The notes under the pieces were generated by a model, which did not search any database, was not told the DNA's origin, and saw only the letters and a program-made list of their open reading frames with translations. Positions 4,317 to 40,051 of a DNA stretch of 64,000 bases are shown piece after piece (positions within the stretch are counted from its first letter, which is position 1; every line of letters begins with the position of its first letter). The DNA lies in NCBI GenBank assembly GCA_963758525.1, contig CAVWVQ010000004.1, forward strand, positions 109,993-173,992. Direction: 5' to 3'. Position numbers and translations under genes: made by a program. Origin of the DNA: an uncultured Phycisphaerales bacterium (lineage in GTDB: Bacteria > Planctomycetota > Phycisphaerae > Tepidisphaerales > Tepidisphaeraceae).

Positions 4317-4349
4317 ATGTGGCCCTCTTTCAATGGGGCGCTGTAGTTA

Positions 4350-4392
4350 GGGCCCGCGCACGAATAACTTCAATTTATTCATGCGCGAGCTC
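4350..4392. mobile_element. Minimal MITE-like element, family X (18-nt TIRs, TTA flanks)
   Basis: TTA|GGGCCCGCGCACGAATAA-7nt-TTATTCATGCGCGAGCTC|TTA. Near-identical ends to 37240-37411. Confidence 0.7.
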
Positions 4393-6180
4393 TTACTGCG
4401 GCCCGTTGTTATTCCCTCCCGCCATGTCCTGCCGCGCTTTCAGCCCGGCCGAAATCAGATTCTGAATCAGCTCCGTCGGGACGAACGTGTCGAAGCGAAT
4501 CGACGGGCCGTCGGTCGCGACTGAGATGCCGATCGGCGGCAGGTCATCAGGAAGGTGCAGCTTGATCGGGAACCCGAAGTTCTCCGCCAGCTTGGAAGCG
4601 GATGTGGCGATGTTGTCGAGGAAGACGTAGTAAACGAGCACCGGCTTTTTCGCGAGATGCGACGCCACCATCGCGACGTTGGGGCGCGGGCTGATCGCGT
4701 CCTGCCCGCCTTTGGCGGAGGCAATCGCGTCAGAAATCAGTTGATCGTTGCCGCCGGTCACCACAATGTAATGACTGTCGTCCGCGGCGCCCGCGTACGC
4801 TCCCACGCCGTTGGGCCCATAAAGCAACGCGATGGCCTGTTGTGCCTGCGCTGCCTTGGGATCGTTCGGATCCATCGCCAGATTGGTCTGAAGCTGATCG
4901 AAGCTGACGCCATCCACGGTCTTCGCGTCCGGCTTGAAATCGAAGGTCATGGGAGCGTTCGTCGATTGCGGTCCGCTCTTGAGCATGTCCGCCAGTGACT
5001 GGAACACCTTCCGGTTGCTGTCGCGGATGACCTTCGAATCCCCCTTGGATACCGCCACCGACTGAAGAACTGCTTCCTGCCCCGCCGCTCCGCTGGGAAC
5101 GATATATCCCGCGCCCGAAGCATTCATGGCACCGACCGCATCCTTCATCGACGAGACCATATCGCCGACCGGCTTCCACTGATCGCCCGCTTCTCCCAGT
5201 TCCTTGACGATCGGGTCGGCCAGGTTCCCCAACATCTGTTGCGCGACTTTCGGGTCGGCCGCGTAACCGCCGACTGCGAAGTATTTCTTGTCAGGCAGGC
5301 CCGCCAGTGCGGAGTCAGCCCCGGTCCCCTTCAACTGCGCAAAGTTCTGACCGAGCCGTGAGTCCGGCTGGAACTCCGCCATCGACCCGGCGCTGATCCC
5401 CGCGTCCGACAGATCGATGCTGATCACGCCGCTGGTCCCCTGCTCGATGTAATCCTGCACCGCGTTCATATACATGTTGACGACCGCCTTGACCACCGGG
5501 GCCAGCTTCTTGCTGGCTTCGTCCTTGCCGAGATTGTTCTGCATCTCGTTGAGAAATTTCTCGCGCTGCTCCTTCAGCTTCGGCAGCCCAACCGTTCGAA
5601 GCTGCTCCATGTTTGCAAAGATCGTGATGTCCTTCGACTCAGCTTCCTTCGCCGCGAGGCCCGCGAGCTTGAAGCCGGCCGGCTTGTTCGCCAGCGTCTC
5701 CTTGTTATCCGCGACGGCAGCGAAATCGCCCCAGTGCGCGATGAAGACCGGCTTGTTGTCGTCGGTGCTGGTAGCGCTGGTGATATCGCCGTCTTCCTGC
5801 GGTTCCTTGAAGTTGCCGACAAATGCCTTGTAGTCACTGACGGGAATGATGCCCACGATTTTGGGCGGAGCACCGGCCGGCTGACCCGCGGGCATCGGAA
5901 AGAATGCAATTGCCGCATCCCCGTCCTTATTAATGCCCTGAGACATGTGACCCTTCTCCAGCATCGAGCCGAGCGGGTCCTTGAACTCCGGGACCATCTC
6001 GTCGATCCCCCACGCGTGGGCGATTTTGATGATCTTCGCATTGATCGCATTCAGATTCTTCACTTTGAGCACCGCGATCGCGTCCGATGGCACCTGGTCG
6101 AGAACCTGCGCCTGAGCACGGGCGCTCAGTGCCAACGCCAACAACGCCAATGGAATAATGAGCCGGTTGCGAATCTTCAT
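4393..6180 (-). CDS. Large exported hypothetical protein (possibly DUF3352-like)
   Basis: Signal peptide MKIRNRLIIPLALLALALSARAQA followed by LDQVPSDAIAVL. Strong coding bias; GGAGA SD upstream. Confidence 0.8.
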   Translation of the reverse strand: MKIRNRLIIPLALLALALSARAQAQVLDQVPSDAIAVLKVKNLNAINAKIIKIAHAWGIDEMVPEFKDPLGSMLEKGHMSQGINKDGDAAIAFFPMPAGQPAGAPPKIVGIIPVSDYKAFVGNFKEPQEDGDITSATSTDDNKPVFIAHWGDFAAVADNKETLANKPAGFKLAGLAAKEAESKDITIFANMEQLRTVGLPKLKEQREKFLNEMQNNLGKDEASKKLAPVVKAVVNMYMNAVQDYIEQGTSGVISIDLSDAGISAGSMAEFQPDSRLGQNFAQLKGTGADSALAGLPDKKYFAVGGYAADPKVAQQMLGNLADPIVKELGEAGDQWKPVGDMVSSMKDAVGAMNASGAGYIVPSGAAGQEAVLQSVAVSKGDSKVIRDSNRKVFQSLADMLKSGPQSTNAPMTFDFKPDAKTVDGVSFDQLQTNLAMDPNDPKAAQAQQAIALLYGPNGVGAYAGAADDSHYIVVTGGNDQLISDAIASAKGGQDAISPRPNVAMVASHLAKKPVLVYYVFLDNIATSASKLAENFGFPIKLHLPDDLPPIGISVATDGPSIRFDTFVPTELIQNLISAGLKARQDMAGGNNNGPQ

Positions 6181-6408
6181 GCGGTCTCCTTCGACAGGCC
6201 GAACAGGCCGAGGCGGCAACACGCGAGGCAGGGGACGCGCACGCGTTCCTGCCGCGCAATACCGCGATCAATGAAAGACATCCTATCGGCTCGACATCGA
6301 GCGTCAAAGGTATAATCAGCGGCCTTCCTAGTAATCGCTGGTAATCGCAATTCTCCGAGTAAACGACCGTGCGCGATCCCGCGCGGTCCGCAGTCACCGA
6401 GAAATGCA

Positions 6409-6515
6409 GAACACGAATCGACACGAATTTCGCACGAATCTTCACGAAGAAGATTTCCCCGGTTTATTCGTGAGGATTCGTGCCCATTGGTGCCCATTGG
6501 TGCCCATTGGTGTTC
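6409..6515. repeat. Inverted array of ~10-nt CACGAAT / ATT(C/G)GTG units
   Basis: ACACGAATCG ACACGAATTT CGCACGAATC ... ATTCGTGCCC ATTGGTGCCC ATTGGTGCCC. Related units at 61782-61805. Confidence 0.8.
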
Positions 6516-6651
6516 CCTCTTCATGGATTCGCGGCGAATGTGGGAGATTGACAGCGCGTGTCCGAAGTCATTTAGGGGATGGGGTAACACGTAGAGACGG
6601 GTCGTCCACCCCGGCGCAGCGGATAAAAATCGCTATGATCAACAGCACGCA

Positions 6652-7428
6652 ATGAACATCGCCTGCTGTCAATTCGATATCGCCTGGGAGCAGAAGCAGA
6701 CGAACCACGACCGCGTGGCCGGGATGCTCCGCGCTGCCGGACTTCCCGCCGGGAGTCTCGTGCTGCTCCCGGAGATGTTTGCCACGGGGTTCAGCATGAA
6801 CGTTGCCGGCATTGATGACGGCCCGAACAACGCAACCCGGGAATTTCTCATCGGACTCAGTCGCGAGTTGAAGCTGAACATTCTTGCCGGCCTGGTTCGG
6901 ACCGGATCCGACGGCGCCGGGCGCAATGAAGCGATCGCAGTTGATCCTGAGGGCAATGAGTCCGCCCGTTATCAGAAGCTGCACCCCTTCAGTTTCGGCG
7001 AAGAAAACAAGCATTACACGCCGGGGAGCAAGGTCGTCACGTTTCGCTGGAACGGGTTGTGCGTCTGCCCGCTGATCTGTTACGACCTGCGCTTCCCCGA
7101 GCCGTTTCGCGCCGCGGTCAAGCGTGGCGCGGACTGTTTTGCGATCATTGCAAACTGGCCTTCGGCGCGCGAGCAGCACTGGGTCACGTTGCTGCAAGCC
7201 CGTGCCATCGAAAACCAGGCGTATGTCGCCGCGGTGAATCGTTGCGGCAACGACCCGAAATCAACGTACTCCGGGCGCAGCCTCATTATCGACCCGCGCG
7301 GCAAGATCCTCGCCGACGCTGGTGATGGACCAGGCGTCATCTCGGTGGATATCGATCGTGCCGCGCTCCTTGCGTATCGCGCCCAATTTCCCGTGCTCAA
7401 CGACATAAGGAACGACTATGCGCTCTGA
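6652..7428 (+). CDS. Carbon-nitrogen hydrolase (nitrilase superfamily, YafV/omega-amidase-like)
   Basis: Catalytic triad contexts LPEMF, YQKLHPF, ICYDLRFPE; also ARAIENQAYV. Confidence 0.93.
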   Translation: MNIACCQFDIAWEQKQTNHDRVAGMLRAAGLPAGSLVLLPEMFATGFSMNVAGIDDGPNNATREFLIGLSRELKLNILAGLVRTGSDGAGRNEAIAVDPEGNESARYQKLHPFSFGEENKHYTPGSKVVTFRWNGLCVCPLICYDLRFPEPFRAAVKRGADCFAIIANWPSAREQHWVTLLQARAIENQAYVAAVNRCGNDPKSTYSGRSLIIDPRGKILADAGDGPGVISVDIDRAALLAYRAQFPVLNDIRNDYAL

Positions 7429-7437
7429 TGCTTCAGT

Positions 7438-7587
7438 GTGGCACGGGCATCTTGCCCGTGTTCGAGGCGCGGGTACGAAGAGAAACCCCGTTACAGAAGG
7501 TTTCTCTCTATTCCTGGACCGTCTGCACGAGCGCGACGCCGCCGTTTCGGCTCTCGCTTCAAATCACAGCCGAGACGGCCGTGCTAC
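7438..7587. repeat. REP-like doublet, family C (GT(G/A)GCAC...GTGC(C/T)AC)
   Basis: GTGGCACGGGCATCTTGCCCGTG ... CACAGCCGAGACGGCCGTGCTAC. Relatives at 17277, 19684, 21862 and 37303. Confidence 0.85.
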
Positions 7588-7632
7588 AGAGATGCCGTTC
7601 GATCCTGCTGTTATTACGCGGGTCCGCGAGTC

Positions 7633-8451
7633 ATGAGTCGAAAGCCCCGCCCGCCGCGCGACGCGTCGCGACGCTATCACGATCGCGTGGCCCGCCAATA
7701 CGATTCGATTTACGAAGACCCGTATTGGGAGTTTCACGACGAGCTCACCTGGCGGCTCATCAAGCCGTATCTCCCGACCGATCTTTCCGTCCCCTGCGCC
7801 GATCTGGGTTGCGGCACCGGCAAGTGGGGCCTGCGGCTGATCAAGAGCGGCTTTGCGGTAACGTTCGTCGACAACTCCGCGGCCATGATCGGCCAGGCGC
7901 GCGGCAAGCTCGACGAGATGGCAACCAAAGGCCAGCGCGGCACGGCGCTGGTTGCCGACATTGTCGATCTTGCAGCGATTCCCGACGAAAGCTTCGGTCT
8001 GGTGCTGGCGATGGGCGATCCGCTGTCGATCTGCTCGGACGCGTCGCGAGCCGCGCGCGAAATCCGCCGCATTCTGCGGCCCGCCGGGGTGGTGATCGCG
8101 ACAGCCGACAACCAGCTTGCGGCATTGGATCACTATGCCCAGCGCGGCAACCTCGATGAGCTGGAGGAATTCGTTCATCGCGGCACAACCCGCTGGCTCA
8201 CCAACGACGAACAGGAGCGCTTCGAACTGACGACCTTCACCCCCGCCTCGCTGCGGAAGCTTTTTGAGCACTCCGGTCTGACCGTTGAAAAGCTCACGGG
8301 CAAGCCGATTCTCCCGGTGCGTCAATACAAAACATTGCTGGAGCAGCCCGGCGCCGTCGAGCGCCTGCTGCGGCTGGAAACAGAATTGAGCCGCGATCCC
8401 GCATCAGCGGCGCGAGCGGCGCATCTGCAGATCGTGGGAAGACGCGGGTGA
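7633..8451 (+). CDS. Class I SAM-dependent methyltransferase
   Basis: ADLGCGTG motif I, FVDNS, EIRRILRPAG. Start placed downstream of the REP element. Confidence 0.9.
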   Translation: MSRKPRPPRDASRRYHDRVARQYDSIYEDPYWEFHDELTWRLIKPYLPTDLSVPCADLGCGTGKWGLRLIKSGFAVTFVDNSAAMIGQARGKLDEMATKGQRGTALVADIVDLAAIPDESFGLVLAMGDPLSICSDASRAAREIRRILRPAGVVIATADNQLAALDHYAQRGNLDELEEFVHRGTTRWLTNDEQERFELTTFTPASLRKLFEHSGLTVEKLTGKPILPVRQYKTLLEQPGAVERLLRLETELSRDPASAARAAHLQIVGRRG

Positions 8452-8532
8452 TTTAGCGGGTTTGGTACACCCTTGGGAACTCGCGCGCGGTGAGTCTTCC
8501 CGAACGCCGAGGGTGCTTGCACCCTCGGATTC

Positions 8533-10332
8533 TTATTCGTGCAGCGCCCCCAGATGCGCTTCTGCGACCTCCATCGCCTCGGCGTCGCTGTTCACAAACA
8601 AACCGCGAAGCTGTGCGTGGACGCGTTCGGCGGCGTGATGACAGAAGCGCTTGCCGGTGATGAGGTCGCGGCGAAGGTCGGGGTTGTGCCCGTTTCCGTC
8701 GGGGCCGAAGGCGATGAGCATTCCCTGCAGCTTGCTGATCACCGCCGCCGAGGCGTAGAGATCGGCGGCGCACCAGGCGACGCGCTCCTGGAGCAGTTGC
8801 ATGTCGAGGATGCGTTCGCGATGCGTTCTCAGCAGCTTACTGATGGATCGCGCGAATGAGGTTGTCAGCTTGCCGAGCGTCTGTCCCTCGTGTGTCAGTT
8901 CGGAATGCAGCCCGGCGAAATCGTGTCCGATGAGAATGTCGTCCCACTGCCCGCGCGCGAAGTGCGCGAGGCGGCCGAAGTTGCCGACCGGATGCTTGGC
9001 CGCGCGCAGCACCTTCTCAAATTCTTCGCCGACGCCTTTCATCCCCACCAGCGCGATGAACGCGGTCATGACTTCGGTCGTCCCTTCGACGATGCGGTTG
9101 ATCCGCGCGTCGCGGAGCATCCGCTCCAGACCGTGCTCGCGCATGTATCCCTCGCCGCCCCAGATCTGCACGGCATCGTCACTGATGCGCCAGAGCGCTT
9201 CGGAGCAGAAGAGTTTGGCGATCGCGGTTTCGAGCATCAGATCATCGGCATGCCGATCGACGAGGCCGGCGCAGAGATAGGTGAGCGCTTCCATCGCAAA
9301 AGTATCCTCGGCCATGCGGGCGATCTTCTGCTTGATGAGCTGAAACTCGCCGATGCTGCGGCCGAACTGACGGCGCGATTGCGCCCGATCGATGCACATT
9401 TCAAGCGCCACTTTGGCGCCGCCGACGCATCCTGCGCTGAGAGTGCATCGTCCGTAGCTCAGGACGCTCAAGGCAACCTTCAGCCCTTTTCCCACGCCGC
9501 CCAGGATCTGATCGGCCGGAACCGGCATGTCGGTGAATTCCAGGGTTCCCTGCCAAGTCCCGCGCACGCCGCACTTGCTCCGGTTGGGGCTCACGACGCG
9601 GAAGCCGCTCATGTGCGGATTGACGAGAAATGCCGTGACCTTGTCGCGCGTGCGGCCGTTCTCGGTGACGGATGTTTTTGCCATCACCGTCATCACTCCG
9701 GCGAGCGCCGAGTTGGTCGCGTACCGTTTGGTTCCGTTCAGCAGCCAGTGCGTCCCGTCGGCACTCCGTTTCGCGATGGTCTGAACGCCCGCCGCGTCCG
9801 ATCCGACCTCCGGCTCGCTCAAACAAAACGCCGCCAGCATATCGCCGGATGCGAGCGACGGCAGATACCGCTGCTTCTGTTCCTCGGTTCCCATCAACAC
9901 CAACGCCTTGAGGCCGATCGACTGATGAGCGCCCACCAGGACCGCCGTCGATGCGCAGTGTCCGGAGATGCGCTCCAGCACCCGGCAATACGCCGTGTGA
10001 CTGAACCCGCCGCCGCCGTACTCTTTGGGAACGGTCATTCCCAGGACGCCGAGCTTTGCGAGCCCGCCAATCACATGTGGCGGAATGCGCTCCTCCGCAT
10101 CGATCTGATCCGCATTCACCTGGGCAACGAGAAATGCATCGACACGCGCGATCAACTCGTCGGTGCGCCGGGCCTCGTCTGCGTCCTGCATCGGATATGG
10201 CAAGACCTGATCCGATGACAGTCTTCCAAAAAAGATCGACTTCACGAAGCCCATCGGCCCCGATGGCGCGGATTCAAGAAGGTCCTGCGCTTTCTCAATC
10301 TGCTCCTGGTCGGCACGTTTGAAGGTTGGCAT
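8533..10332 (-). CDS. Acyl-CoA dehydrogenase (VLCAD/ACAD9-like, C-terminal extension)
   Basis: FCLSEPEVGSDA, LNGTKRYATN, RRQFGRSIGEFQLI, QIWGGEGYM, RDARINRIVEGTTEV. AGGAG SD upstream. Confidence 0.95.
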   Translation of the reverse strand: MPTFKRADQEQIEKAQDLLESAPSGPMGFVKSIFFGRLSSDQVLPYPMQDADEARRTDELIARVDAFLVAQVNADQIDAEERIPPHVIGGLAKLGVLGMTVPKEYGGGGFSHTAYCRVLERISGHCASTAVLVGAHQSIGLKALVLMGTEEQKQRYLPSLASGDMLAAFCLSEPEVGSDAAGVQTIAKRSADGTHWLLNGTKRYATNSALAGVMTVMAKTSVTENGRTRDKVTAFLVNPHMSGFRVVSPNRSKCGVRGTWQGTLEFTDMPVPADQILGGVGKGLKVALSVLSYGRCTLSAGCVGGAKVALEMCIDRAQSRRQFGRSIGEFQLIKQKIARMAEDTFAMEALTYLCAGLVDRHADDLMLETAIAKLFCSEALWRISDDAVQIWGGEGYMREHGLERMLRDARINRIVEGTTEVMTAFIALVGMKGVGEEFEKVLRAAKHPVGNFGRLAHFARGQWDDILIGHDFAGLHSELTHEGQTLGKLTTSFARSISKLLRTHRERILDMQLLQERVAWCAADLYASAAVISKLQGMLIAFGPDGNGHNPDLRRDLITGKRFCHHAAERVHAQLRGLFVNSDAEAMEVAEAHLGALHE

Positions 10333-10401
10333 GGTGTTCTCCTGGCTCGATGAACCCGAATTGCCGGGGTACCGGCAAAGCGGGTTCATGAAACGATTCC
10401 T

Positions 10402-10503
10402 GCCGGGACGCGCAGCGGAGCGCGTCGGACGGCGCTGTTTTTCATAGGACCGCTCGCCCTTCCACGGGCTCCGTGCGCGTTCCGCTGCGCATCGCGGCTA
10501 ACC
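10402..10503. repeat. REP-like doublet, family E (GTTAGCCGCGACGCGCAGCGGAGCG), overlapping the fadJ 3' end
   Basis: GCCGGGACGCGCAGCGGAGCGCG ... CGCGTTCCGCTGCGCATCGCGGCTAACC. Cleaner copy at 21631-21715. Confidence 0.8.
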
Positions 10504-12928
10504 TTGGGTTCGATATCGTGTTCCCGCTTGACGGACCTGCCGACAGCGGCTGATTTCGCGTGGCGCACTCCCGCAACAGCGCTGCTGGCGCAAATCGGGA
10601 TCCGAACTGTTTCTCCAGTGCTTCGAGTTTCTCGATCACCAGAGGGAGGCCCACCGCGTTGGCAAATTGAATCAACCCGCCACGGAACGGGGCGAGCCCG
10701 AGGCCCAGGACCGTTGCGAGGTCGATCGTCTCGGTGGAATCCGTGACATTTTCCTGCAGGACGCGAGCAGCTTCGTTGACCATCGGAAGCACCAGCCGCC
10801 AGGCGATCGCTTCATTCTCCTGCCTGTGGCTGGTGGCGGTGTCAGGACGCTGAACCGAAGCTGGTTCTTGAGTAATTTGCGAGTTCTGCAATCCCTCGGG
10901 AAAGCCGCCGCGCCGGCCCTCCCCCAGAGTACTACTGGGACATTCCATCTGAATTTGCGGGTCGGTCTCCTGTAGGGCGGGATTCATCCCGCCGTGGCCT
11001 GTGGTCTTACAAAAGGCGCGGCGGGATAAATCCCGCCCTACGTTGTCCACCCGCATTTTCGACGGGAATGAACCGCTAGGGGAGGGGGAAGCCGGGGGTT
11101 GACCATCCGGCGGGGCGCTGGCCATCAGCGCCTGCTGAAGTTCCGCGTTGACTGTCAGCGGGTGCCCATGCGCGTGTTTTGCATCGTGCTCGTAAAATCC
11201 GCGGCCGGCTTTGTCGCCGAGCCAGCGGCGTTCGAGTGCCAGTTGAAGGGCAGGTGGCATTGGCGGCGGGTTGCGCAAGACGCTCCCAAGGGTTGCCAGC
11301 ACGTGAGCCGCGACGTCGAGTCCGATCGTGTCGAGCAATTCGAAAGGCCCCATCGGCATGCCCCACTGCTTGAGCGCGGCGTCGATTCGATCGATGGGAA
11401 CGCCTTCGCCTGCGACGGCCAGCGCCTCGGCGAGATAGGGGATCAGCACGCGATTGACGAGAAATCCGGGCGCATCCCGCACCAACACGGGCGTTTTACC
11501 CAACCGGCCCGCCAGCGTGGCGGCCGTCGCCAGCGGCTCTTCCCGGCTCTGGACGGTTCGCACGACTTCGACGAGCGGCATCTTCGCGACTGGATTGAAA
11601 AAATGCAGACCGATCACGCGCTCCGGGTGCGCGGTGCTGCTGGCTATCTCCGTCACGCTCAGCGAACTGGTGTTGGTCGCGAGCACGGCGTCGGGCCGGG
11701 TCAGACGATCCAGCTTCGCGAAGACTTCCTTCTTGGCTGGCATCTCTTCGAGGACGGCTTCGATGACCACATCCGCCAGGTGCAGTCCCGTCCAGTCGGT
11801 GCACGGCGCGACGCGGTTCATGGCGTTGCGTGCCGCCACGCGATCGAGCCGGCCGGCGGAGACATCATCGTCGAGCAGGCGTTTCACCCGCGCCAGACCC
11901 GCCGATGCGGCTTTGGCGTTCACTTCAACCAGCCGAACGTCGATCCCGGCACGCGCCAGCGCATGCACGATTCCCGCGCCCATCGTTCCGCCGCCAATCA
12001 CGGCCGCCCGCTTCACCTCCGCCGGCCTGGCTCGCAATTGATCGGCGATCAGCCGCTTGGCGCCTTGTTTGAGGAAAAAGAGGCGAATCAGGTTTTGGCA
12101 GGTGTCAGTCTGCATTAGGTCAATTACCGCGGCGCGCTCCGCGTCGAAGCCGGCCATTTCTCCGTCGCGACAGGCGATTTGCACGACGTCGATCAGCCGC
12201 ATGGGAGCGGGATAATGCCCCAGCGTCGTCGCGAGCGTTTCCCTGCGAGCGCGAGCCAAAATCTTGTTGCGAACGAACGGCATGCGCGCCGCGGTGTGAT
12301 CCATCAGCGACAGACGCCGGTTGGGCCGCTCGCCCATCACGCGCCGCTTCGCCGCCGCGAGCAGTGCTTCGGGACGAACCACTTCGTCGACAATTCCCGC
12401 GCGCAGCGCCTTCTTCGGCGGCATGGTCTTGCCGGCGAGCAGCAACGGCAGAGCGCGCGTCAGTCCGATCAGGCGCGGCAAGCGCACCGTTCCGCCCCAG
12501 CCCGGCAGAATCCCGAGCTTCACTTCCGGCAAACCGATAGCGATCGAGGTATCCGCCGCCGCGATGCGCATGCTGCACGCCAGCGACAGTTCCAGCCCAC
12601 CTCCCAGGCAATCTCCGTTGATTGCCGCGACCGTGGGCATCGGCAGATTCGCAATCCGCGAGAAGAGCGACTGCCCCTCGGCCAGAAACTGGGCCATCTG
12701 CTCTCGATCCATCTTGCGGATCTCAAACAGATCGGCGCCGGCGATGAACGAGCGATTTTTCCCGGAGGCAAAGATCAACCCATGCGGCCCATCGCGCTCG
12801 ACCTGGTCGAGGGCGACATTCAATTCCGCCATCACGCGAGGAGACAGCGTGTTGACGCCTTTGGCCGGTACGTCAATCCAGATCGTTGTGATCCAGTCGG
12901 AGTCAGTTGTCATGCGGAGCGTTTCCAT
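10442..12928 (-). CDS. fadJ: Multifunctional enoyl-CoA hydratase / 3-hydroxyacyl-CoA dehydrogenase (FadJ/FadB type) with in-frame repeat insertion
   Basis: FIAGADL, CLGGGLE, GLPEVKLGILPGWGG, VIGGGTMGAGI, TNTSSL, GLHFFNPV, PGFLVNR, PMGPFELLD, GLGLAPFRGG. Confidence 0.93.
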   Translation of the reverse strand: METLRMTTDSDWITTIWIDVPAKGVNTLSPRVMAELNVALDQVERDGPHGLIFASGKNRSFIAGADLFEIRKMDREQMAQFLAEGQSLFSRIANLPMPTVAAINGDCLGGGLELSLACSMRIAAADTSIAIGLPEVKLGILPGWGGTVRLPRLIGLTRALPLLLAGKTMPPKKALRAGIVDEVVRPEALLAAAKRRVMGERPNRRLSLMDHTAARMPFVRNKILARARRETLATTLGHYPAPMRLIDVVQIACRDGEMAGFDAERAAVIDLMQTDTCQNLIRLFFLKQGAKRLIADQLRARPAEVKRAAVIGGGTMGAGIVHALARAGIDVRLVEVNAKAASAGLARVKRLLDDDVSAGRLDRVAARNAMNRVAPCTDWTGLHLADVVIEAVLEEMPAKKEVFAKLDRLTRPDAVLATNTSSLSVTEIASSTAHPERVIGLHFFNPVAKMPLVEVVRTVQSREEPLATAATLAGRLGKTPVLVRDAPGFLVNRVLIPYLAEALAVAGEGVPIDRIDAALKQWGMPMGPFELLDTIGLDVAAHVLATLGSVLRNPPPMPPALQLALERRWLGDKAGRGFYEHDAKHAHGHPLTVNAELQQALMASAPPDGQPPASPSPSGSFPSKMRVDNVGRDLSRRAFCKTTGHGGMNPALQETDPQIQMECPSSTLGEGRRGGFPEGLQNSQITQEPASVQRPDTATSHRQENEAIAWRLVLPMVNEAARVLQENVTDSTETIDLATVLGLGLAPFRGGLIQFANAVGLPLVIEKLEALEKQFGSRFAPAALLRECATRNQPLSAGPSSGNTISNPRLAAMRSGTRTEPVEGRAVL
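10935..11078. mobile_element. MITE-like element, family Y, carrying a family A REP doublet and inserted into a family B hairpin inside fadJ
   Basis: Closely similar to 57798-57930. CTA duplicated at 10932-34 and 11076-78. Removing the 144 nt restores CCCTCCCCCAGAGTACTAGGGGAGGGGG. Confidence 0.85.
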
Positions 12929-12943
12929 TTCAGACTCCCGTGT

Positions 12944-14251
12944 TTAACTTCCCCGCTCCAACAAGATCGCCGCGCCCTGGCCGCCGCCGACGCAGAGGGC
13001 GGCGATGCCGCGCTCCAGATTGCGGCGGCGCATTTCGTGGAGCATTGTCAGGACGATTCGCGCGCCGGTCGCGCCGACTGGATGGCCCAGCGCGATCGCT
13101 CCGCCGTTGACGTTGAGCTTTGCCGGGTCGATTTCGCCCAGCGCCTCGTCCCGATTGAGATGTTCAACGGCAAATCGCGTAGAGCCACATGCCTTGAGGC
13201 AAGCCAGCACTTGCGCGGCGAATGCCTCATTGATTTCGAACAGTGGAATATCCGCGACCGTGAGTCCGCTTTCGCGGAGCAACTGGTCGATCGCGTAGAC
13301 CGGGCCGAGTCCCATGCGCGAGGGGTCGAGTCCCACGTAGGCGTACCCGCTGACGAAGCCGAGGACCTCGCTCCCGTTGGCTCGCGCCGCCTCGGCGTCG
13401 GCCAGAAGAAGCGTCGCCGCGCCGTCGGTGATCTGGCAGGAGTTGCCGACGGTGACAGTGCCGTCGCGACGATCGAAGATCGGCTTCAGCTTCGCCAGCG
13501 CCTCCAACGTCTGACCCGGCCGGGGTCCGGTGTCGGCTGTGACCGGAGTGAAGCGATCGCCCGCGTAAAACGTGAACATCTCCGCGTCGAATTTTCCTGC
13601 TTCGGCGCCTTCCACAGCTCGCTGATGCGAGCGAAGCGCATATTCGTCCTGTTCGAGCCGGGTGATGCCCCATTCCTGAGCGAGCAACTCGGCGGTCTTT
13701 CCCATAATCATGTCGCAGGTGGGATCAGTGAGCCCAAGCTCGAGGCCGGCGATCGGACGGAAGTGCCGGGGCCGCAGCATCGTTGCCGCCGACGCTTTTT
13801 GCATGAAGCTTTTCGCGCGGCCGAGCTGCGCCATGGGCTCCATCGTTTCGGCGGGGAAGAGCAGCGGAATATTGCTCATCGATTCGGCGCCTCCGGCAAG
13901 GATCGCCCTGCCGCGGCCGGTGCGGATGCGAGCAGCGGCTTCGGCGATCGCTTCCATTCCCGACGCGCAGTTGCGCTGCATCGTCAAACCCGGCACGCGC
14001 ACCGGCACGCCCGCCCAGATTGCCGCGACGCGTGCGAGATTCGCCGCGTCCACGGGCATCACGACGTTGCCGAGTATGACTTCGTCCAGGTCATCCGCAG
14101 GCCAGTTGGCGCGATAAAGCGTCTCTTGAATCGCCCGCTTCCCAAGGTCCGCGGCGTGAACCTCTTTGAGGGCTCCGCCGGATTTGGCGAACGGAGTTCG
14201 CGCGCCGCTGAGAATCGCCACGCGTCGATCGGACATGTTCCAGGCCACCAT
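12944..14251 (-). CDS. 3-ketoacyl-CoA thiolase (FadI/FadA type)
   Basis: RTPF, QRNCASG, EINEAFA, NVNGGAIALGHPVGATG, LCVGGGQG. GAGGAG SD before ATG 14251. Confidence 0.95.
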   Translation of the reverse strand: MVAWNMSDRRVAILSGARTPFAKSGGALKEVHAADLGKRAIQETLYRANWPADDLDEVILGNVVMPVDAANLARVAAIWAGVPVRVPGLTMQRNCASGMEAIAEAAARIRTGRGRAILAGGAESMSNIPLLFPAETMEPMAQLGRAKSFMQKASAATMLRPRHFRPIAGLELGLTDPTCDMIMGKTAELLAQEWGITRLEQDEYALRSHQRAVEGAEAGKFDAEMFTFYAGDRFTPVTADTGPRPGQTLEALAKLKPIFDRRDGTVTVGNSCQITDGAATLLLADAEAARANGSEVLGFVSGYAYVGLDPSRMGLGPVYAIDQLLRESGLTVADIPLFEINEAFAAQVLACLKACGSTRFAVEHLNRDEALGEIDPAKLNVNGGAIALGHPVGATGARIVLTMLHEMRRRNLERGIAALCVGGGQGAAILLERGS

Positions 14252-14300
14252 TTTGCTGCTCCTCTTCACATGCGGGACAACGGCTTCCGACGATCAAAAA

Positions 14301-14347: not shown

Positions 14348-14352
14348 AGAGT

Positions 14353-17299: not shown

Positions 17300-17304
17300 G
17301 ACCA

Positions 17305-31329: not shown

Positions 31330-32534
31330 GCCCACGCATTCTCATTCTCAGCGCCAGTGTCGGCAGCGGCCACAACCGGGCCGCGCAGGCGATCCACCTC
31401 GCGCTGCACCGCATCCGTCCCGATGCGATCGTTGAATACGTCGACGTTCTGGACGACACCAACCGCGCCTTTCGCGGAATGTACGGCCGGGGCTATTTCG
31501 GACTGGTGGACCGTGCGCCGCACGTCGTCGGGTATCTCTACGACCGTCTCGATCAGCCGGTCAAAAGCCCGCGGATGGAGCGCGTGAGGCATTCGCTGTC
31601 GATGATGAATCTGCAGCGGCTCGTCGAGCGGCTGACCCTCAAGCCATGGGACCTGGCGATCTGCACGCACTTTCTTCCCGCCGAGATTATCGGCAAACTC
31701 CACGATGCCGGGCGGATCGATTTTCCTCAGGCCATTGTCACCACCGACTTCGACACCCATCGGCTCTGGGTGAATCCGCCAGCGGCAAAGTATTTTGTCG
31801 CAGCTCAGGAAGGCGCGATTCATCTTACTGCATGGGGCGTGCGAAACGCGGACATTGCCGTGACCGGTATTCCCATCCATCCGAGCTTTGCCGAGTTCAA
31901 ATCCTCGGCGGAATGCCGCCGTCTGCACGGAATCGGAAACACGCGTCCGGTCATCCTGCAGCTTGCCGGCGGCGCCGGCTTCGGTCCGGTTGAAAAGGTG
32001 CACCGAGCGATTTTGGATGTGCAGACGCCGCTGGAGATCATCACCGTCGCCGGGCGCAACGAGCCGCTGCGGGATGACCTGACGCGCATGCAGTGCCCGT
32101 CGCGACATATCCGTCACATCCTGGGATTCACGCATCAGATGGACGAATTAATGGCCGCCGCCGACGTCGTCGTCTCCAAACCCGGCGGACTGACAGCATC
32201 GGAATCGCTGGCTCGCGGCGCCGCAATGGTGATCTGCGACCCGATCCCCGGCCAGGAAACACGCAACAGCGATTACCTCCTGGAGAACGGCGCGGCCATC
32301 AAGGTGAACAACCTCGCGAGCCTGCCCTACAAGCTCGGGGCCATGCTCAGCGAGCGCGGGCGGCTAGAAGGACTGCGCGGCAACGCCCGGCGACTCGCGC
32401 GGCCGCATGCCGCATTTGAAGTCGCGTCGCAGTGTCTGGACCTGATCGACGCCGCAAGCGGCACGAATAAGCTTGGGCGACGCACTGAGACGATAGCTGC
32501 TTCGATGCCGGAATCGCGTTTGAGCGCGGTGTAG
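31326..32534 (+). CDS. MGDG synthase / UgtP-like GT28 diacylglycerol glycosyltransferase
   Basis: SASVGSGHNRAA, CTHFLP, VTTDF..H..W, TGIPI, SKPGGLTASE, PIPGQETRN. ATGA overlap with the upstream gene. Confidence 0.92.
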   Translation: MSPRILILSASVGSGHNRAAQAIHLALHRIRPDAIVEYVDVLDDTNRAFRGMYGRGYFGLVDRAPHVVGYLYDRLDQPVKSPRMERVRHSLSMMNLQRLVERLTLKPWDLAICTHFLPAEIIGKLHDAGRIDFPQAIVTTDFDTHRLWVNPPAAKYFVAAQEGAIHLTAWGVRNADIAVTGIPIHPSFAEFKSSAECRRLHGIGNTRPVILQLAGGAGFGPVEKVHRAILDVQTPLEIITVAGRNEPLRDDLTRMQCPSRHIRHILGFTHQMDELMAAADVVVSKPGGLTASESLARGAAMVICDPIPGQETRNSDYLLENGAAIKVNNLASLPYKLGAMLSERGRLEGLRGNARRLARPHAAFEVASQCLDLIDAASGTNKLGRRTETIAASMPESRLSAV

Positions 32535-32555
32535 TGGAGCAATCGCGTCGACTCT

Positions 32556-32624
32556 GTAGGGCGGGATTCATCCCGCCGATTCGTTGCCATTCCTCAGACC
32601 ACGGCGGGATGAATCCCGCCGTAC
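32556..32624. repeat. REP family A doublet between convergent genes
   Basis: GTAGGGCGGGATTCATCCCGCC ... GGCGGGATGAATCCCGCCGTAC. Confidence 0.9.
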
Positions 32625-32685
32625 GGAAAACGCGTCGCAGATCCGCTGCTGAGTTTTGTCTCAGCGCACGTAGCCTCGGAACCTT

Positions 32686-33342
32686 CTACGGCAACACAAA
32701 CACCTGCACGAAGCCCGGCCCATGCACGCCGGTCACGAGATTCAACTCGATGTCCGCGGTTTTTGACGGCCCGGAGATGATCGTGATGCCGGCGGAATTG
32801 CCGTCGTGGGTCAGCAGCGCGAACAGATCGACCAGGTCCGGCAGAAAGTTTGCCGCCTCGACGATCGCGACATGCGTCGGCGGCACCAGCGACAGCGCCC
32901 GCCCGTGGTCCGGCGAGGATCGCATGATCAGGCTTCCCGTCTCGGCGACGGCTTTGTAAACGTCCGTGACCGCGCAGTCGAAGTCATACAGCGCATCGAG
33001 TGTCATGTCCGGCCACGCCGCGACTTCAAACCCACCCTCGCGCAGAGCTGCGGGAACCCCAAGCTTCTCCAGCAATTCCGAACGAGGCACCGCGACGCGC
33101 CGAACAGCGCGGGAACGAAGAAGCTCGATCAATCGCGCGGGCAGCGTGCTCGGTTCCACCGCATCGACATGCATCTTGTTGGCGGTTGCCCGGGCCGTGA
33201 ACAGTTCGGAAAGTCGCGCATCCGCAAAAGCAAGACGGGTGATTTTGTCCTCGATTGCGGGCGGAATCGGCGCAACAGACAACGGCTCGCCGCGTCCGAG
33301 CGCCTTGCGCACTTTGGCCATCACGCCGGATGCATCGTTCAT
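32686..33342 (-). CDS. lutC: Lactate utilisation protein C (LUD domain)
   Basis: AVAETGSL, RALSLVPPTHVA, ISGPSKTADIEL.LVTGVHGP. Confidence 0.93.
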   Translation of the reverse strand: MNDASGVMAKVRKALGRGEPLSVAPIPPAIEDKITRLAFADARLSELFTARATANKMHVDAVEPSTLPARLIELLRSRAVRRVAVPRSELLEKLGVPAALREGGFEVAAWPDMTLDALYDFDCAVTDVYKAVAETGSLIMRSSPDHGRALSLVPPTHVAIVEAANFLPDLVDLFALLTHDGNSAGITIISGPSKTADIELNLVTGVHGPGFVQVFVLP

Positions 33343-34790
33343 GGTCCGCTCTTTCGCTTGGCCCACATCTGGTGAAACGTCTTCTCCGCCGGCGCCGGCA
33401 TGTCACGAATCTGGGTCCAGCCCGCCGCGACCGAGGGAAGCTTTTGGATCCAGCCGGTCTTTTTCGCCCGGCGGCGCAGGTCCCACTTCTGAAACATCGC
33501 GATGCATTTGTAGACGAACGGAGACAGCAACCCTCTCGCCCACGCTCGATAAATGAACCGCTCGATGGGGCTGTTGAGATGCTGGGTGACAATGTCGCGC
33601 CGCAGGTTGATCAGGTGTTTTGGAATGTCGATACGCACCGGGCATGCTTCGTAACACGCGCCGCAAAGACTCGACGCCTGCGGCAAATCCTTGAAGTTTC
33701 CCAAGCCTTGAAAGAGCGGCGTAATCAACGCGCCGATCGGGCCGGGATACACGCTGCCGTACGCATGGCCGCCGATGTTGCGGTAGATCGGACAGGCGTT
33801 GAGGCACGCGCCGCAGCGGATGCAGCGCAGCGTCTCGCGATAAGGCCCCGCGAGAATCTCACTGCGCCCGTTATCCAGGAGCACCAGGTGAAATTCCTCC
33901 GGCCCGTCGCGCTCGCCCGGCTCGCGTTTGCCGCCAAAGAGGCTCGTGTACACCGTCATCGCCTGGCCCGTCGCGCTGCGGGCCAGCAACTTCAACATCA
34001 CGGACAGGTCCACCTGCCGCGGGACCAGCTTTTCGATGCCGACCAGGCTGACCAGCACGCGCGGCGTCGTCATGCTCTGCCGGGCGTTCCCTTCGTTTTC
34101 CACAACGCAAACCTGGCCGGTATCGGCAACGAGAAAGTTGCCACCGGTGATGCCGAGATCAGCCCTGCGGAATTTTTCCCGAAGATAAACGCGAGCCTGC
34201 ATCGTCAGATGCTGCGGATCATCGTTGTACGGCGTTTTAAAGTAACTGCTGAACAGCGTCGCGATCGACTTCAGATCCTTATGAATGATGGGCGTCACGA
34301 TATGGCTGGGCTTGTCGTGATCGATCTGGATGATGAACTCCCCCAGGTCCGTTTCGACCACGTCCATCCCCGCGTGCTCCAGCGCGTGGGCCAATTCCAC
34401 TTCCTCGCTGGCCATCGACTTGCTCTTGATGCACGTCTTGAGCCCGCGGCTGCGGGCAATCTCGAGAATGATCCGCCGCGCCTCTTCGCCGGTTGCAGCG
34501 AAATGAACATGCCCGCCGCTCTTTTCGACGTTGACGCAAAGTTGATCGAGGTAGAAATCGAGGTTGTCCAGCGCGTGCTGCTTGATGTCACCGGCAAGAA
34601 TGCGCAGATCGAGCGGATTGGGCATCAGGCTGAGAATCTGCTTGCGCCCGGTATCCTGCCGCACGACGGCGTTGTTGACCGCGCGGCGCAGACGCTCGTC
34701 CCCCGCCGCCTTCACGCTGACGGAGTGAAAATCGAATTTCGAGGCCTCCGCCTCTTCCAGGAAATGCTGCGTGTTTGGATCGTTCGCCAT
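33339..34790 (-). CDS. lutB: Lactate utilisation Fe-S protein B
   Basis: KSKSMASEE, ETDLGEFIIQ, PSHIVTP, ENEGN, CIRCGACLNACP, SSLCGACYEACPV. Confidence 0.95.
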   Translation of the reverse strand: MANDPNTQHFLEEAEASKFDFHSVSVKAAGDERLRRAVNNAVVRQDTGRKQILSLMPNPLDLRILAGDIKQHALDNLDFYLDQLCVNVEKSGGHVHFAATGEEARRIILEIARSRGLKTCIKSKSMASEEVELAHALEHAGMDVVETDLGEFIIQIDHDKPSHIVTPIIHKDLKSIATLFSSYFKTPYNDDPQHLTMQARVYLREKFRRADLGITGGNFLVADTGQVCVVENEGNARQSMTTPRVLVSLVGIEKLVPRQVDLSVMLKLLARSATGQAMTVYTSLFGGKREPGERDGPEEFHLVLLDNGRSEILAGPYRETLRCIRCGACLNACPIYRNIGGHAYGSVYPGPIGALITPLFQGLGNFKDLPQASSLCGACYEACPVRIDIPKHLINLRRDIVTQHLNSPIERFIYRAWARGLLSPFVYKCIAMFQKWDLRRRAKKTGWIQKLPSVAAGWTQIRDMPAPAEKTFHQMWAKRKSGP

Positions 34791-34805
34791 CGACGTCTAT
34801 TCCGT

Positions 34806-35558
34806 TCACCAGCTGTTGAGATCGATCCCCAGCGCCTCGGCAATCAGCTCGGCGATATGGACAACCTCGGTCGGGACGCCGCTGCGATGACACATCCCCG
34901 CGATGTTCATCGTGCAGCCGGCGTCATTGCAGATCAGCGCCTCCGCCTTGGTCTCGGCAATGCACTTCACTTTATCCTCGACAATCGCGCCGCTGATCGC
35001 CGGATATTTGACGGCAAACGTTCCGCCAAAGCCGCAGCATTGATCGGTTCGCTCAAGTGGCACAAAATCGACATTCCCGATCTGTTGCAGCATCCGCACG
35101 CCCTCGTCCTTCAGGCCGATGCCCCGCAGATGGCAGGTGTAGTGATAAGACATCCGACGTTTGGCGGGCAGCGACAGATTCGAGAGATCGAGCTTCAGCA
35201 CCTTGTGCAGAAACTCGACAAACTCATGCGTTGCCGACGAAACCTTGTGCATCCGCGGCTCCCACGCGTGATCGTCCTTGAACAGGTGATGAAACTGCTC
35301 GCGCACCATTGCGCAGCATGAGCCGCTGGGCGTCACCACATAATCGTACGGCTCAAAAACCTCGATCATGCGCTCGGCAAGTTTGCGGGCCTCGGGATGG
35401 AAACCGTTATTGAAGAACGGCTGCCCGCAGCAGGTCTGCGCCTCGGGAAATTCGACGCGCCAGCCGTAGTGCTCGAGAATTTTGGTAACAGCAATGCCGA
35501 CGCGTGGATAAAACTGGTCCGTCAGACAGGTGATGAACAGCGCCGCTGTGGGTTGCAT
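34806..35558 (-). CDS. lutA: Lactate utilisation protein A (CCG domains)
   Basis: LFITCL.D, QTCCGQP, PSGSC, YHYTCH, CCGFGGTFAVK, DAGCTMNI. Confidence 0.95.
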   Translation of the reverse strand: MQPTAALFITCLTDQFYPRVGIAVTKILEHYGWRVEFPEAQTCCGQPFFNNGFHPEARKLAERMIEVFEPYDYVVTPSGSCCAMVREQFHHLFKDDHAWEPRMHKVSSATHEFVEFLHKVLKLDLSNLSLPAKRRMSYHYTCHLRGIGLKDEGVRMLQQIGNVDFVPLERTDQCCGFGGTFAVKYPAISGAIVEDKVKCIAETKAEALICNDAGCTMNIAGMCHRSGVPTEVVHIAELIAEALGIDLNSW

Positions 35559-35632
35559 AAGATGAGTGCGTCACTTTATGCGCCGAACAATCAGAGTACA
35601 AGCATTCGAATGCGCAAGCACGCAGCAGTTCG

Positions 35633-35965
35633 CTACGATGCCCGACGGCCGATCTTTTCCGCCAGGCTTTCAGCGATCAGGCCCGACAGCGTGCGCCCCG
35701 TCCGCTTGGCGTAGCGGCCTGCGGCGTTAATCAAGCTGGGAGTCATACTGATCATCACGCGCTTCGCCTTGGCCGATTCCGGCTTTGTCGGCCGACCAAC
35801 GCTCCGCGCAACGCTCTCTTCGCGGCGTTCGGTGCGCGTGAGAGGACGACCATCCTCCAATTTCAATTTCTTCGCCCAAGCATCAAGACCGGCAAAGTCA
35901 TGTTCGTCGGGAGTGAGCGTTGTGCTTGTGCTCCGGCTGCGGGCCGTTAATTTTGCCTTCTTCAT
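35633..35965 (-). CDS. Putative antitoxin with C-terminal ribbon-helix-helix (BrnA/CopG-like)
   Basis: GRPTKPE..AKRVMISMTPSLINAAGRYAK..GRTLSGLIAE. Starts 3 nt after the stop of the BrnT-like remnant. Confidence 0.7.
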   Translation of the reverse strand: MKKAKLTARSRSTSTTLTPDEHDFAGLDAWAKKLKLEDGRPLTRTERREESVARSVGRPTKPESAKAKRVMISMTPSLINAAGRYAKRTGRTLSGLIAESLAEKIGRRAS

Positions 35966-35968
35966 GGG

Positions 35969-36183
35969 CTATTTCCTTCGTCGGCGCAACTGCCGCTTCA
36001 TCTCCGCGGTGATCACTTGCATCCAACGGCCCGGAGTCGTCTTCCCCCATACACGCCGTTTGCCTTCGCCAGTTCTTGTGGGAACGGGGGCGTGGCATTT
36101 TCCACAACGAACTGCGCCTCTGCGGGCGTCACGCCATGCTTGCTCAAGTGATCACGGTTCGATTCGTCCCACGCGAAGATCAC
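35969..36183 (-). pseudogene. BrnT-like toxin, frameshifted and apparently internally deleted
   Basis: Manual translation gives (M)IFAWDESNRDHLSKHGVTPAEAQFVVENATPPFPQE, then a shifted frame GEGKRRVWGKTTPGRWMQVI-TAEMKRQLRRRRK*. Not in the ORF track. Confidence 0.7.
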
Positions 36184-36377
36184 CAATAAAATTGTACAAC
36201 GGAATTACCGCTCCGCCACCGTCCGCGCGTTCAGACGGTTCGGGGTGACGTGGTTCTTCTGTCGGCCCAAGCAGTTAAACTCGTCGCCGAGCAGCAGCAT
36301 ATGGTCCGCCATCACGAAGCCATCCGTTTGACGCGATTTTCCGCCGCCGATACGGTAGCGGGCTCCGGAGTCAGAAT

Positions 36378-36635
36378 TTGTTGCCAAGCGATGATCATTT
36401 CGAGCAAAGCATTCGCCGCCAGATTACATTGAACCGGTCTCGCACGCCGACGCAGCGTTTCCTGGCGTTGTGCGATCTTCTCGACGCCGCCAGGGCAATG
36501 GCGCCGGATGATCCGGCGGCCCGGGCGCGGCGACGCCGCGCGAACGCCGCCCGCCAACGTGAACGGGAACAATGGCATGCCCAATGCAGACGACTCTTTG
36601 CCTCCCGCGGGCCGGACGCTTCAACGGGCGTTTGA
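36378..36635 (+). CDS. Small helical protein, putative antitoxin partner of the downstream nucleotidyltransferase
   Basis: RSRTPTQRFLALCDLL motif; overlaps the start of the nucleotidyltransferase gene. Confidence 0.55.
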   Translation: MLPSDDHFEQSIRRQITLNRSRTPTQRFLALCDLLDAARAMAPDDPAARARRRRANAARQREREQWHAQCRRLFASRGPDASTGV

Positions 36636-37179
36636 TGCGCTGGTCGGCGTGCTCCACGAGCGCAAGGTCCGCTACGCCATCATCGGCGGACTCGCGATGA
36701 TTCAACATACTCGCGTGCGAACCACCGATGACATCGATACGCTGCTGGCGCTCCCTCAAATCGCCATGGCTGGCTTCTTCGAGGCACTCCAGGCTCGCGG
36801 GTTTCAGATTGAGATGGTGCGAAATATTCGGGAGCTTCGGGACGAGGGTTTGACGAAGATCGAGTTCGACGACGTGATCGTCGACCTGATGCGGCCACTG
36901 CCCGCATATGCTCATGTCCTGGACCTAGCCGTCGAGTCGAAGATTCTCGGGCATGAGGTGCGTGTCAGTTCGGCCGAGGGGTTGATCGTGATGAAGCTCA
37001 TCGCCGACAGACCGATGGACGAGACTGACATACGTGACCTGCTGGTCGCCTACGGGAACGAACTCGATTTGGGTTACGTCCAAACTGAACTCCATTCCAT
37101 CATGGAGCAGAACGACCCGCGCCTGGCAAAGCTCGAGGCGTGGATTGCGGACACGCACGATGGCACAAGTTCGCGCTGA
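36577..37179 (+). CDS. Nucleotidyltransferase (AbiEii/MenT-like toxin family)
   Basis: YAIIGGLAM..H..VRTTDDID, VDL, SAEGLIVMKL.A.RP.D..DI..L. Confidence 0.82.
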   Translation: MPNADDSLPPAGRTLQRAFDALVGVLHERKVRYAIIGGLAMIQHTRVRTTDDIDTLLALPQIAMAGFFEALQARGFQIEMVRNIRELRDEGLTKIEFDDVIVDLMRPLPAYAHVLDLAVESKILGHEVRVSSAEGLIVMKLIADRPMDETDIRDLLVAYGNELDLGYVQTELHSIMEQNDPRLAKLEAWIADTHDGTSSR

Positions 37180-37239
37180 AAACAATTTCGGCGGTAGTCA
37201 GATCCCCGCTTGAGCTCTGACGCCCTGCACCCTCTCTTA

Positions 37240-37411
37240 GCGCGCGCGCGTGAATAATCTTCCCAATTTAGTTTTGAAGCCAGCAAAGAATGATCCTCCC
37301 CCGTAGCACAGCCGTCTCGGCTGTGATTTCGGGCCACAGCCGAGACGGCTGTGCTGCAAAACTGCGTTACTGATAGCTTCGACATCGATCAAGTTATTCG
37401 TGCGCGAGCGC
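37240..37411. mobile_element. MITE-like element, family X, carrying a family C REP doublet (37303-37357)
   Basis: TTA|GCGCGCGCGCGTGAATAA ... TTATTCGTGCGCGAGCGC|TTA. Confidence 0.75.

Positions 37412-40051
<2,640 letters not shown>

What the first reader, a model, noticed from the sequence alone, without database searches (positions are those of the whole stretch)
4347..37414. MITE family X sits exactly on TAA stop codons, in empty and REP-loaded forms
Seen: 4350-4392 and 37240-37411 share near-identical 18-nt terminal inverted repeats (15/18 arm match within each copy) and both are flanked by TTA on each side. In both cases the right-hand TTA is the TAA stop of a minus-strand gene (4393-95; 37412-14). 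One copy has a 7-nt core; the other has a 136-nt core holding a family C REP doublet. Established: some IS5-group transposases duplicate TWA targets. Inference: a non-autonomous element that lands harmlessly on stop codons, supplies a 3' hairpin, and may carry REPs as cargo.
Basis: partly seen in the sequence, partly recalled or inferred. Interest (0 to 1): 0.7.

Follow-up and report, generated by a model that had tools for sequence, protein, structure and literature searches.

The report
ISAzo13-type MITE carrying a REP doublet
The two flagged repeats are copies of a roughly 170-base, gene-less jumping element with the ends of ISAzo13 insertion sequences and a pair of REP hairpins in its middle; only about one copy in six sits on a stop codon, likely as a by-product of its TTA/TAA target, and the element likely spread these hairpins around the genome.

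Summary
(1) Both copies belong to a family of about 45 decayed 165-190-bp elements. The REP-loaded form is the norm. The 43-nt copy is a unique internal deletion, and the true REP-free form lies elsewhere (C3:2488799-2488897).
(2) The ends and 3-bp TWA duplication match ISAzo13-family elements (best 27/30 nt; 54 of 93 full elements have an exact duplication, 53 of them TWA), not the IS5 group. No intact partner was found in this assembly.
(3) Stop codons are not the rule: 7 of 41 loci examined abut one. That is above a 7% baseline, but weak once the two discovery copies are removed, and similar to autonomous ISAzo13 (6 of 34).
The GTAG REP doublet occurs without these arms in relatives, and inside an unrelated 131-bp shell in one relative. 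Here 44 of 76 loci keep an ISAzo13-type end, the hairpin is better conserved than the arms (92% vs 76-85%), and half lie between convergent genes (12-17% for two other REP families). Verdict: a new variant of a known kind, of moderate interest.

The parts
4347..4349 (.). left copy of the 3-bp target duplication (TTA), short copy
4350..4392 (.). 43-nt internal-deletion derivative: first 21 nt match the family A end 21/21, last 22 nt match the B end 19/22; only copy of this form found in the genome
4393..4395 (-). right copy of the duplication = native TAA stop of the 595-aa gene
4393..6180 (-). conserved 595-aa gene without Pfam or NCBIfam match (host gene; convergent with trpC/IGPS 3361-4182)
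   Evidence: (longer 609-aa frame)
37237..37239 (.). left copy of the 3-bp target duplication (TTA), full copy
37240..37302 (.). A arm: ISAzo13-type terminal repeat (core 37240-37257, IS-like for about 27-30 nt) plus inner arm
37303..37357 (.). GTAG-tagged REP doublet (two inverted 23-nt REPs, 9-nt spacer)
37358..37411 (.). B arm: inner arm plus ISAzo13-type terminal repeat (core 37394-37411)
37412..37414 (-). right copy of the duplication = native TAA stop of the PSCyt2/PSD1 gene
37412..39997 (-). DUF1549/DUF1553 (PSCyt2/PSD1) host gene, convergent with a DUF6036 nucleotidyltransferase gene 36508-37179
   Evidence: G000 C4:131801-131919
7539..7601 (-). degenerate REP doublet of the same family without a recognisable end
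   Evidence: G000 C4:117531-117593

Best explanation
The repeats are copies of a 165-190-bp non-coding element with ISAzo13-type ends, a 3-bp TWA/TNA duplication and a central GTAG REP doublet, likely copied in the past by an ISAzo13 transposase acting in trans. Shown: the anatomy, the family of about 45 end-bearing loci, the match of ends and duplication to autonomous ISAzo13 elements, and the free existence of the REP in relatives. Inferred: (a) a REP doublet entered an ISAzo13-derived MITE once and the composite was then amplified, since all loaded copies carry it at the same site; (b) the burst is old (closest pair 94% identical, median 76%) and the driver is lost or unassembled; (c) TAA stops are hit because TAA is the target and duplicating it regenerates the stop, so a stop is the one site at a gene where insertion is neutral, with no targeting needed; (d) the arms then erode faster than the hairpin, leaving ordinary-looking REP doublets; (e) the 43-nt copy arose by internal deletion, likely after insertion.
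For: Ends: 93 full ISAzo13 elements of mostly 1.28-1.34 kb, 54 with an exact duplication (28 TTA, 25 TAA, 1 TAT), best end match to the MITE 27/30 nt (L203). A family relative holds a full element with near-identical ends and TTA/TTA (L290). Transposases score 567-575 bits on NF033519, cut-off 200; plasmid homologues are annotated ISAzo13. Own genome: TWA at 18 of 56 termini against 1% background, TNA at 29 of 56; exact duplication in 6 of 17 two-ended copies. 44 of 76 loci keep at least one end and 9 more keep an inner arm; in the 16 two-ended copies the REP is 92% identical to consensus and the arm segments 76-85%. The REP motif occurs in 32 of 140 other family genomes; among the loci fetched from relatives the arm profiles hit only the ISAzo13 element itself. 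Unrelated short elements with the same end and TWA duplication occur in other taxa (L028 78 bp, L033 98 bp, L039 112 bp).
Against: No intact ISAzo13 in this assembly: only a 3' relic whose end matches the MITE at 18/30; completeness is 90.9%. The inner arms beyond about 30 nt match no ISAzo13 end collected. 11 of 17 two-ended copies lack an exact duplication, and two of the six positives needed a 1-nt manual boundary shift. No base-level empty site was seen. Ten of the 16 two-ended copies seeded the consensus, so arm identities are if anything inflated, and loci were found with a profile that includes the REP, which favours REP conservation. 23 of 76 loci have neither end nor inner arm and may be independent REP insertions. 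Stop-like flanks are still enriched without the discovery pair (5 of 18, p 0.007).
Confidence: 0.8

Rival explanations
1. An empty ISAzo13 MITE spread first, and REP doublets were later inserted into many copies at one preferred site by a RAYT (Y1) enzyme, or REPINs spread by RAYT and dragged variable lengths of arm with them.
For: One REP-free copy exists with the doublet missing to the base (C3:2488799-2488897). 28 of the 44 end-bearing loci have only one end. The genome has 23 Y1 matches. The spacer occurs in several variants.
Against: Only 1 REP-free copy against 43 loaded end-bearing loci. Its junction coincides with a 4-nt direct repeat flanking the palindrome, which fits slippage deletion equally well. 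No Y1 gene here is flanked on both sides by this REP (1 of 23 has a doublet upstream only). One-ended copies often keep the TWA flank exactly at the end, a DDE signature.
Confidence: 0.12
2. The element is actively directed to stop codons, for example through coupling to translation or transcription termination.
For: 7 of 20 termini with a stop-like flank abut a called stop against 7% (p 3e-4); TAA only 4 of 10 against 6.7% (p 0.003). Autonomous ISAzo13: 6 of 34 end an open frame of >=100 codons against 73 of 1508 flank TAAs (p 0.005).
Against: 34 of 41 loci are not on a stop. Without the two discovery copies TAA is 2 of 8 (p 0.10) and the per-locus count 5 of 43 (p 0.18). Against sites within 100 nt of a gene end the excess is not significant (p 0.11-0.23; within 200 nt p 0.02-0.08). 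The IS control includes intolerable in-gene TAAs; scaled to tolerated sites p is 0.23 (a rough correction borrowed from this genome). Flanks that are stop codons are also preserved by selection while others decay.
Confidence: 0.08
3. Add-on rather than alternative: copies are retained because the symmetrical hairpin serves both transcripts at convergent 3' ends (mRNA stabilisation or termination).
For: 37 of 74 intergenic loci lie between convergent genes against 15-16% expected (p about 1e-11) and against 33 of 190 and 9 of 77 for two other REP families called the same way (Fisher p about 3e-7). The bias is equal for copies with ends (21 of 42) and without (16 of 32). ISAzo13 as a family is reported without orientation bias (PMC9208149, passage). 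The 43-nt copy folds better on the transcribed strand (-25.4 vs -20.0 kcal/mol).
Against: Convergent gaps hold no promoters and may simply tolerate a 170-bp insert best. Palindromes can be repaired by template switching, and AT-rich arms drift in a 61% GC genome. No U-tail was found. There are no expression data.
Confidence: 0.35
4. The partner is an IS5-group (TWA-duplicating) transposase.
For: Only the shared TWA duplication (recalled property of some IS5-group elements, from no call).
Against: The same ends are found on ISAzo13 elements in many genomes. IS5 ends were not collected for a direct comparison.
Confidence: 0.02

Closest known systems
ISAzo13-family insertion sequences (PF07592, NF033519; e.g. 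ISNsp4, ISNpu10, ISScl2, ISRop2 as annotated)
   Same: Terminal repeat of about 26-30 nt with the AATAAC core, 3-bp duplication (PMC10045372 passage: 3-bp TSDs, related to Zator), TWA target
   Different: No transposase; 165-190 bp; inner arms of unknown origin; central REP doublet
Bacterial MITEs (Nezha, Chunjie, ERIC, Correia, RUP; PMC3184786 section 4 read)
   Same: Short, non-coding, TIR plus TSD, ends shared with an IS found only in other genomes (as for Nezha/ISNpu3), often at gene 3' ends, folds into a stem-loop
   Different: Parent family ISAzo13, for which my searches found no MITE in print; the core is itself a member of another repeat class
GTAG REPs / REPINs with RAYT (PMC3733652, PMC3116915, PMC2817692, PMC3337134; passages read)
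   Same: GTAG-tagged palindrome, inverted doublet with spacer, extragenic, mostly downstream of genes, patchy across relatives
   Different: Enclosed in DDE-type ends with a TSD; no cognate RAYT flanked by this REP was found; known REP-IS links in those passages run the other way (ISs using REPs as targets)

Membership tests
MITE | terminal inverted repeats around a short core | tested here: met
MITE | target-site duplication | tested here: met
   6 of 17 two-ended copies exact, 5 more at 2/3; TWA at 18 of 56 termini
MITE | no coding capacity | tested here: met
   no gene called inside; two mechanical ORFs overlapping the copy were not retained by the codon model
MITE | dispersed multiple copies | tested here: met
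   44 of 76 loci with at least one end, plus the 43-nt copy
MITE | filled and empty alleles in close strains | tested here: inconclusive
   orthologues lack the element but intergenic DNA is too diverged to align; public contigs did not bridge the site
MITE | mobilisation in trans by a transposase | not testable with these tools
   needs a transposition assay
ISAzo13-derived element | ends shared with elements encoding an ISAzo13 transposase | tested here: met
   up to 27/30 nt; L290 and L109 pass NF033519
ISAzo13-derived element | 3-bp AT-rich duplication | tested here: met
   53 TWA among 54 exact duplications in 93 full elements; same target in the MITE
ISAzo13-derived element | cognate autonomous element in the same genome | tested here: not met
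   one 3' relic only, end 18/30 to the MITE; lowers 'currently mobile', not descent
IS5 family | ends shared with an IS5-family transposase gene | not tested
   no IS5 ends collected; the ends were found on ISAzo13 elements instead
GTAG REP / REPIN (core only) | GTAG tag, 20-40-nt palindrome, inverted doublet | tested here: met
   57 doublets and 16 unpaired matches
GTAG REP / REPIN (core only) | extragenic location | tested here: met
   74 of 76 loci outside called genes
GTAG REP / REPIN (core only) | cognate RAYT gene flanked by inverted copies of the REP | tested here: inconclusive
   none of 23 own Y1 loci and none of the 30 fetched (of 39) Y1 loci in five relatives is flanked by this exact REP in inverted pairs; a related REP flanks one (L356) and a variant brackets another in direct orientation (L352)

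The most novel reading that the evidence does not exclude
In this genome a GTAG REP family was spread mainly by a DDE (ISAzo13) transposase acting on a MITE shell, with no RAYT needed. The shell then erodes while the hairpin is kept, preferentially between convergent genes, so many ordinary-looking REP doublets are MITE fossils. The same REP was captured independently by a second, unrelated shell (131 bp, 8-bp duplication) in a relative, which makes MITE capture a recurrent route of REP dissemination.
Probability: 0.45. Interest if true: 0.65.

Novelty: new variant of a known kind. Interest (0 to 1): 0.42.

Why it matters
How REPs spread within genomes is described as open in the REPIN literature (PMC3337134, conclusion passage), and RAYTs are the assumed agent. 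A MITE with a clear DDE signature that carries a REP doublet, with graded remnants from full element to bare doublet, gives a testable second route. It also ties a MITE family to ISAzo13, a little-studied family, and measures that family's target on 93 elements (TWA). The stop-codon angle is of low importance: it follows largely from target choice plus selection. Interest is moderated because earlier notes of this scan record both ISAzo13-type MITEs and REP-carrying MITEs in dozens of other genomes (unchecked AI notes), so this is one more instance of a recurrent pattern.

Tried and rejected
1. Autonomous partner in the own genome: only a 3' relic; a full-length query found nothing at E<=1e-60.
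2. The composite in relatives: a DNA search of 40 other genomes found only REP-core matches and one IS end; the end pattern in five REP-bearing relatives found one full ISAzo13 and one stray match.
3. Cognate RAYT: not found.
4. Empty alleles: three soil runs as contigs gave patchy cover and no joint across the element; no RNA holder listed. Neither is evidence either way.
5. Rfam: only hairpin look-alikes far below the gathering scores.
6. Terminator/promoter scans: nothing at either copy.
7. Origin of the inner arms in ISAzo13 ends: no match beyond about 30 nt.
8. Partner of the solo end at C3:890041-890059: none within 10 kb upstream.
9. Parent IS of the second shell in G732: not identified.
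10. No tree was built to place the REP-free copy; about 110 bp at 20-25% divergence seemed too little signal.
11. One search was translated in the wrong frame and not used; one search gave the right frame. The first automatic end-finding mis-set several boundaries and was replaced.
12. Literature: searches for ISAzo13+MITE (one paper, no link in the passages read), ISAzo13 ends, MITE+REP composites and stop-codon insertion found no description of this composite. The library lacks most subscription journals, and I read no supplements, where IS or MITE lists could hold such an element.
Full report
Observation. The coordinates, arms (15/18), TTA flanks and cores are as described. The window is G000:C4:109993-173992 of a 6.47-Mb, 61% GC assembly. 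PSCyt2/PSD1 domains suggest a planctomycete (the association is recalled). Both right-hand TTAs are native stops. Orthologues of the PSD1 gene end at the same residue position (3 loci) and orthologues of the 595-aa gene end at a similar position, 10 of 11 with TAA, with no profile hit for the element in those loci.

The family. A profile from ten copies finds 76 loci. Of these, 16 keep both ends, 6 only the A end, 22 only the B end, and 32 neither; 9 of those 32 keep an inner arm. The consensus is about 169 bp: a 60-nt A arm, a 55-nt GTAG REP doublet and a 54-nt B arm. The family is old: among two-ended copies the closest pair is 94% identical and the median 76%. The loaded form is therefore the norm. 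The 43-nt copy is 21/21 identical to the A end and 19/22 to the B end, so it is an internal deletion, and it is unique. A 7-nt spacer is probably too short for a transpososome, so deletion after insertion is more likely (inference). The true REP-free form is C3:2488799-2488897, where both inner arms abut and the doublet is absent to the base. The junction lies at a 4-nt direct repeat, so it may be an ancestral empty copy or a later excision; 1 empty against 43 loaded favours excision.

Target. I curated 56 termini at 41 loci: 41 from a matrix scan next to a REP, 15 added or offset by hand (the A end of the window's own full copy fell below the matrix threshold and is not among them). TWA flanks 18 of 56 (background 1%) and TNA 29 of 56. 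Six of 17 two-ended copies have an exact duplication: 4 TWA, 1 TGA, 1 TCA.

Partner. A relative's contig end showed the same terminus followed by the start of an ORF, which led to PF07592. From class, phylum and metagenome searches I delimited 93 full elements (loci with truncated transposases or no repeat pair were dropped by the script). 54 have an exact 3-bp duplication, 53 of them TWA; the best end match to the MITE is 27/30 nt. A same-family genome has a full element with nearly the same ends and TTA/TTA (L290). These transposases pass the ISAzo13 equivalog NF033519 at 567-575 bits, and plasmid homologues are annotated ISAzo13. A 3-bp TSD for ISAzo13 is stated in PMC10045372 (passage). 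The own assembly holds only a 3' relic of a different sub-lineage, so the MITE is probably inert now. A scan of 185,579 genomes for the exact end gave 45 stretches, most apparently chance; among them are 78-, 98- and 112-bp elements with TWA duplications and unrelated cores.

Stop codons. Seven termini at seven loci abut a called stop: 4 TAA, 2 TGA, 1 TAG. Among stop-like flanks that is 7 of 20 against a 7% baseline of tolerated sites (p 3e-4). Removing the two discovery copies gives 5 of 18 (p 0.007), TAA only 2 of 8 (p 0.10), and per locus 5 of 43 (p 0.18; that denominator counts four unexamined loci as misses). One-ended copies may hide the stop-side end. Against sites within 100 nt of gene ends the excess is not significant; within 200 nt it is borderline. 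Autonomous ISAzo13 show 6 of 34, significant against all flank TAAs but not after a rough correction for intolerable sites. So about one copy in six is on a stop. This is a modest excess that TWA targeting, neutrality of a duplicated stop, and preservation of flanks that are stops can largely explain. Active targeting is not excluded but is not needed.

The REP cargo. The 23-nt REP has 130 matches here (57 doublets). It occurs in 32 of 140 other genomes of the family. In the loci fetched from relatives it lacks these arms, so it is an independent repeat. In G732 it sits inside a different 131-bp shell (43 end matches; alignment). Nine full REP-bearing copies were seen among 30 loci, 3 with an 8-bp duplication. 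No cognate RAYT was found. In two-ended copies the REP is 92% conserved and the arm segments 76-85%, with the ascertainment and palindrome-repair caveats given above.

Placement. 37 of 74 intergenic loci lie between convergent genes, against 15-16% expected and 17% and 12% for two other REP families in the same genome. Copies with and without ends share the bias (21 of 42, 16 of 32), which fits a common origin. Both window copies are between convergent genes. Tolerance and hairpin function both remain possible. Gene calls come from my own codon model (5,372 genes, 77% coding), which likely misses short genes.

Mechanism. An ISAzo13 transposase in trans would excise and insert the shell at TWA, duplicating 3 bp; copy number would rise through replication or gap repair (general DDE knowledge). 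The REP rode along from an early capture. Selection then kept copies at 3' ends and in convergent gaps, while the arms decayed. Anatomy, counts and end matches are shown; capture order, movement and function are inferred.

Comparison and novelty. It works like a MITE and meets the testable criteria except a resident partner. Its core is a GTAG REPIN-like doublet. Papers seen: PMC3184786 (passages and section 4); PMC9208149, PMC2817692, PMC3733652, PMC2759123, PMC3116915, PMC10045372 and PMC3337134 (passages only); all others as search listings. Nine searches found no ISAzo13 MITE or REP-in-MITE description. Earlier notes of this scan list 46 findings with ISAzo13 and MITE and 55 with MITE and REP doublet. 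They are unchecked and not independent support, but they show recurrence. Verdict: real, new variant of a known kind, interest 0.42.

Noticed in passing
G732, e.g. L300, L318, L322 (about 130 bp each): The same REP doublet sits in an unrelated 131-bp shell with 23-nt inverted ends and an 8-bp duplication in some copies (43 end matches in that genome). Congeners G733 and G007 have similar ends next to other hairpins. Parent IS not identified.
   Followed up: partly
G000 C3:890041-890059: A solo, near-perfect terminus with a TTA flank lies 4 nt after the TAG stop of a gene that reads towards it from the inner side; no partner end within 10 kb upstream.
   Followed up: partly
L078-L093 (G000), e.g. 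L086: A multi-copy Y1 (IS200-like) gene family; the copy inspected is bracketed by its own short inverted repeats rather than GTAG REPs, resembling the TIR-associated tyrosine transposases named in PMC3733652.
   Followed up: no
window 4247-4317, 10970-11042, 32554-32625, 57827-58012: A second GTAG REP family with 358 matches at 194 loci genome-wide; one doublet shares the gap with the 43-nt copy.
   Followed up: partly
window 61114-61356: Two inverted arrays of a 7/14-nt unit forming a long imperfect palindrome.
   Followed up: no
window 4393-6180: A 595-aa gene found in 136 of 140 other family genomes yet without Pfam or NCBIfam match.
   Followed up: no
window 37412-37414 versus L372, L373: In the two congeners another ORF starts within a few bases of the PSD1 gene's stop, whereas here a convergent nucleotidyltransferase gene and a lutAB-like operon follow, so the locus was rearranged at or near the element.
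   Followed up: no
L028, L033, L039, L055: Short elements (three measured at 78-112 bp) with the same terminus and TWA flanks but unrelated cores in distant taxa.
   Followed up: partly
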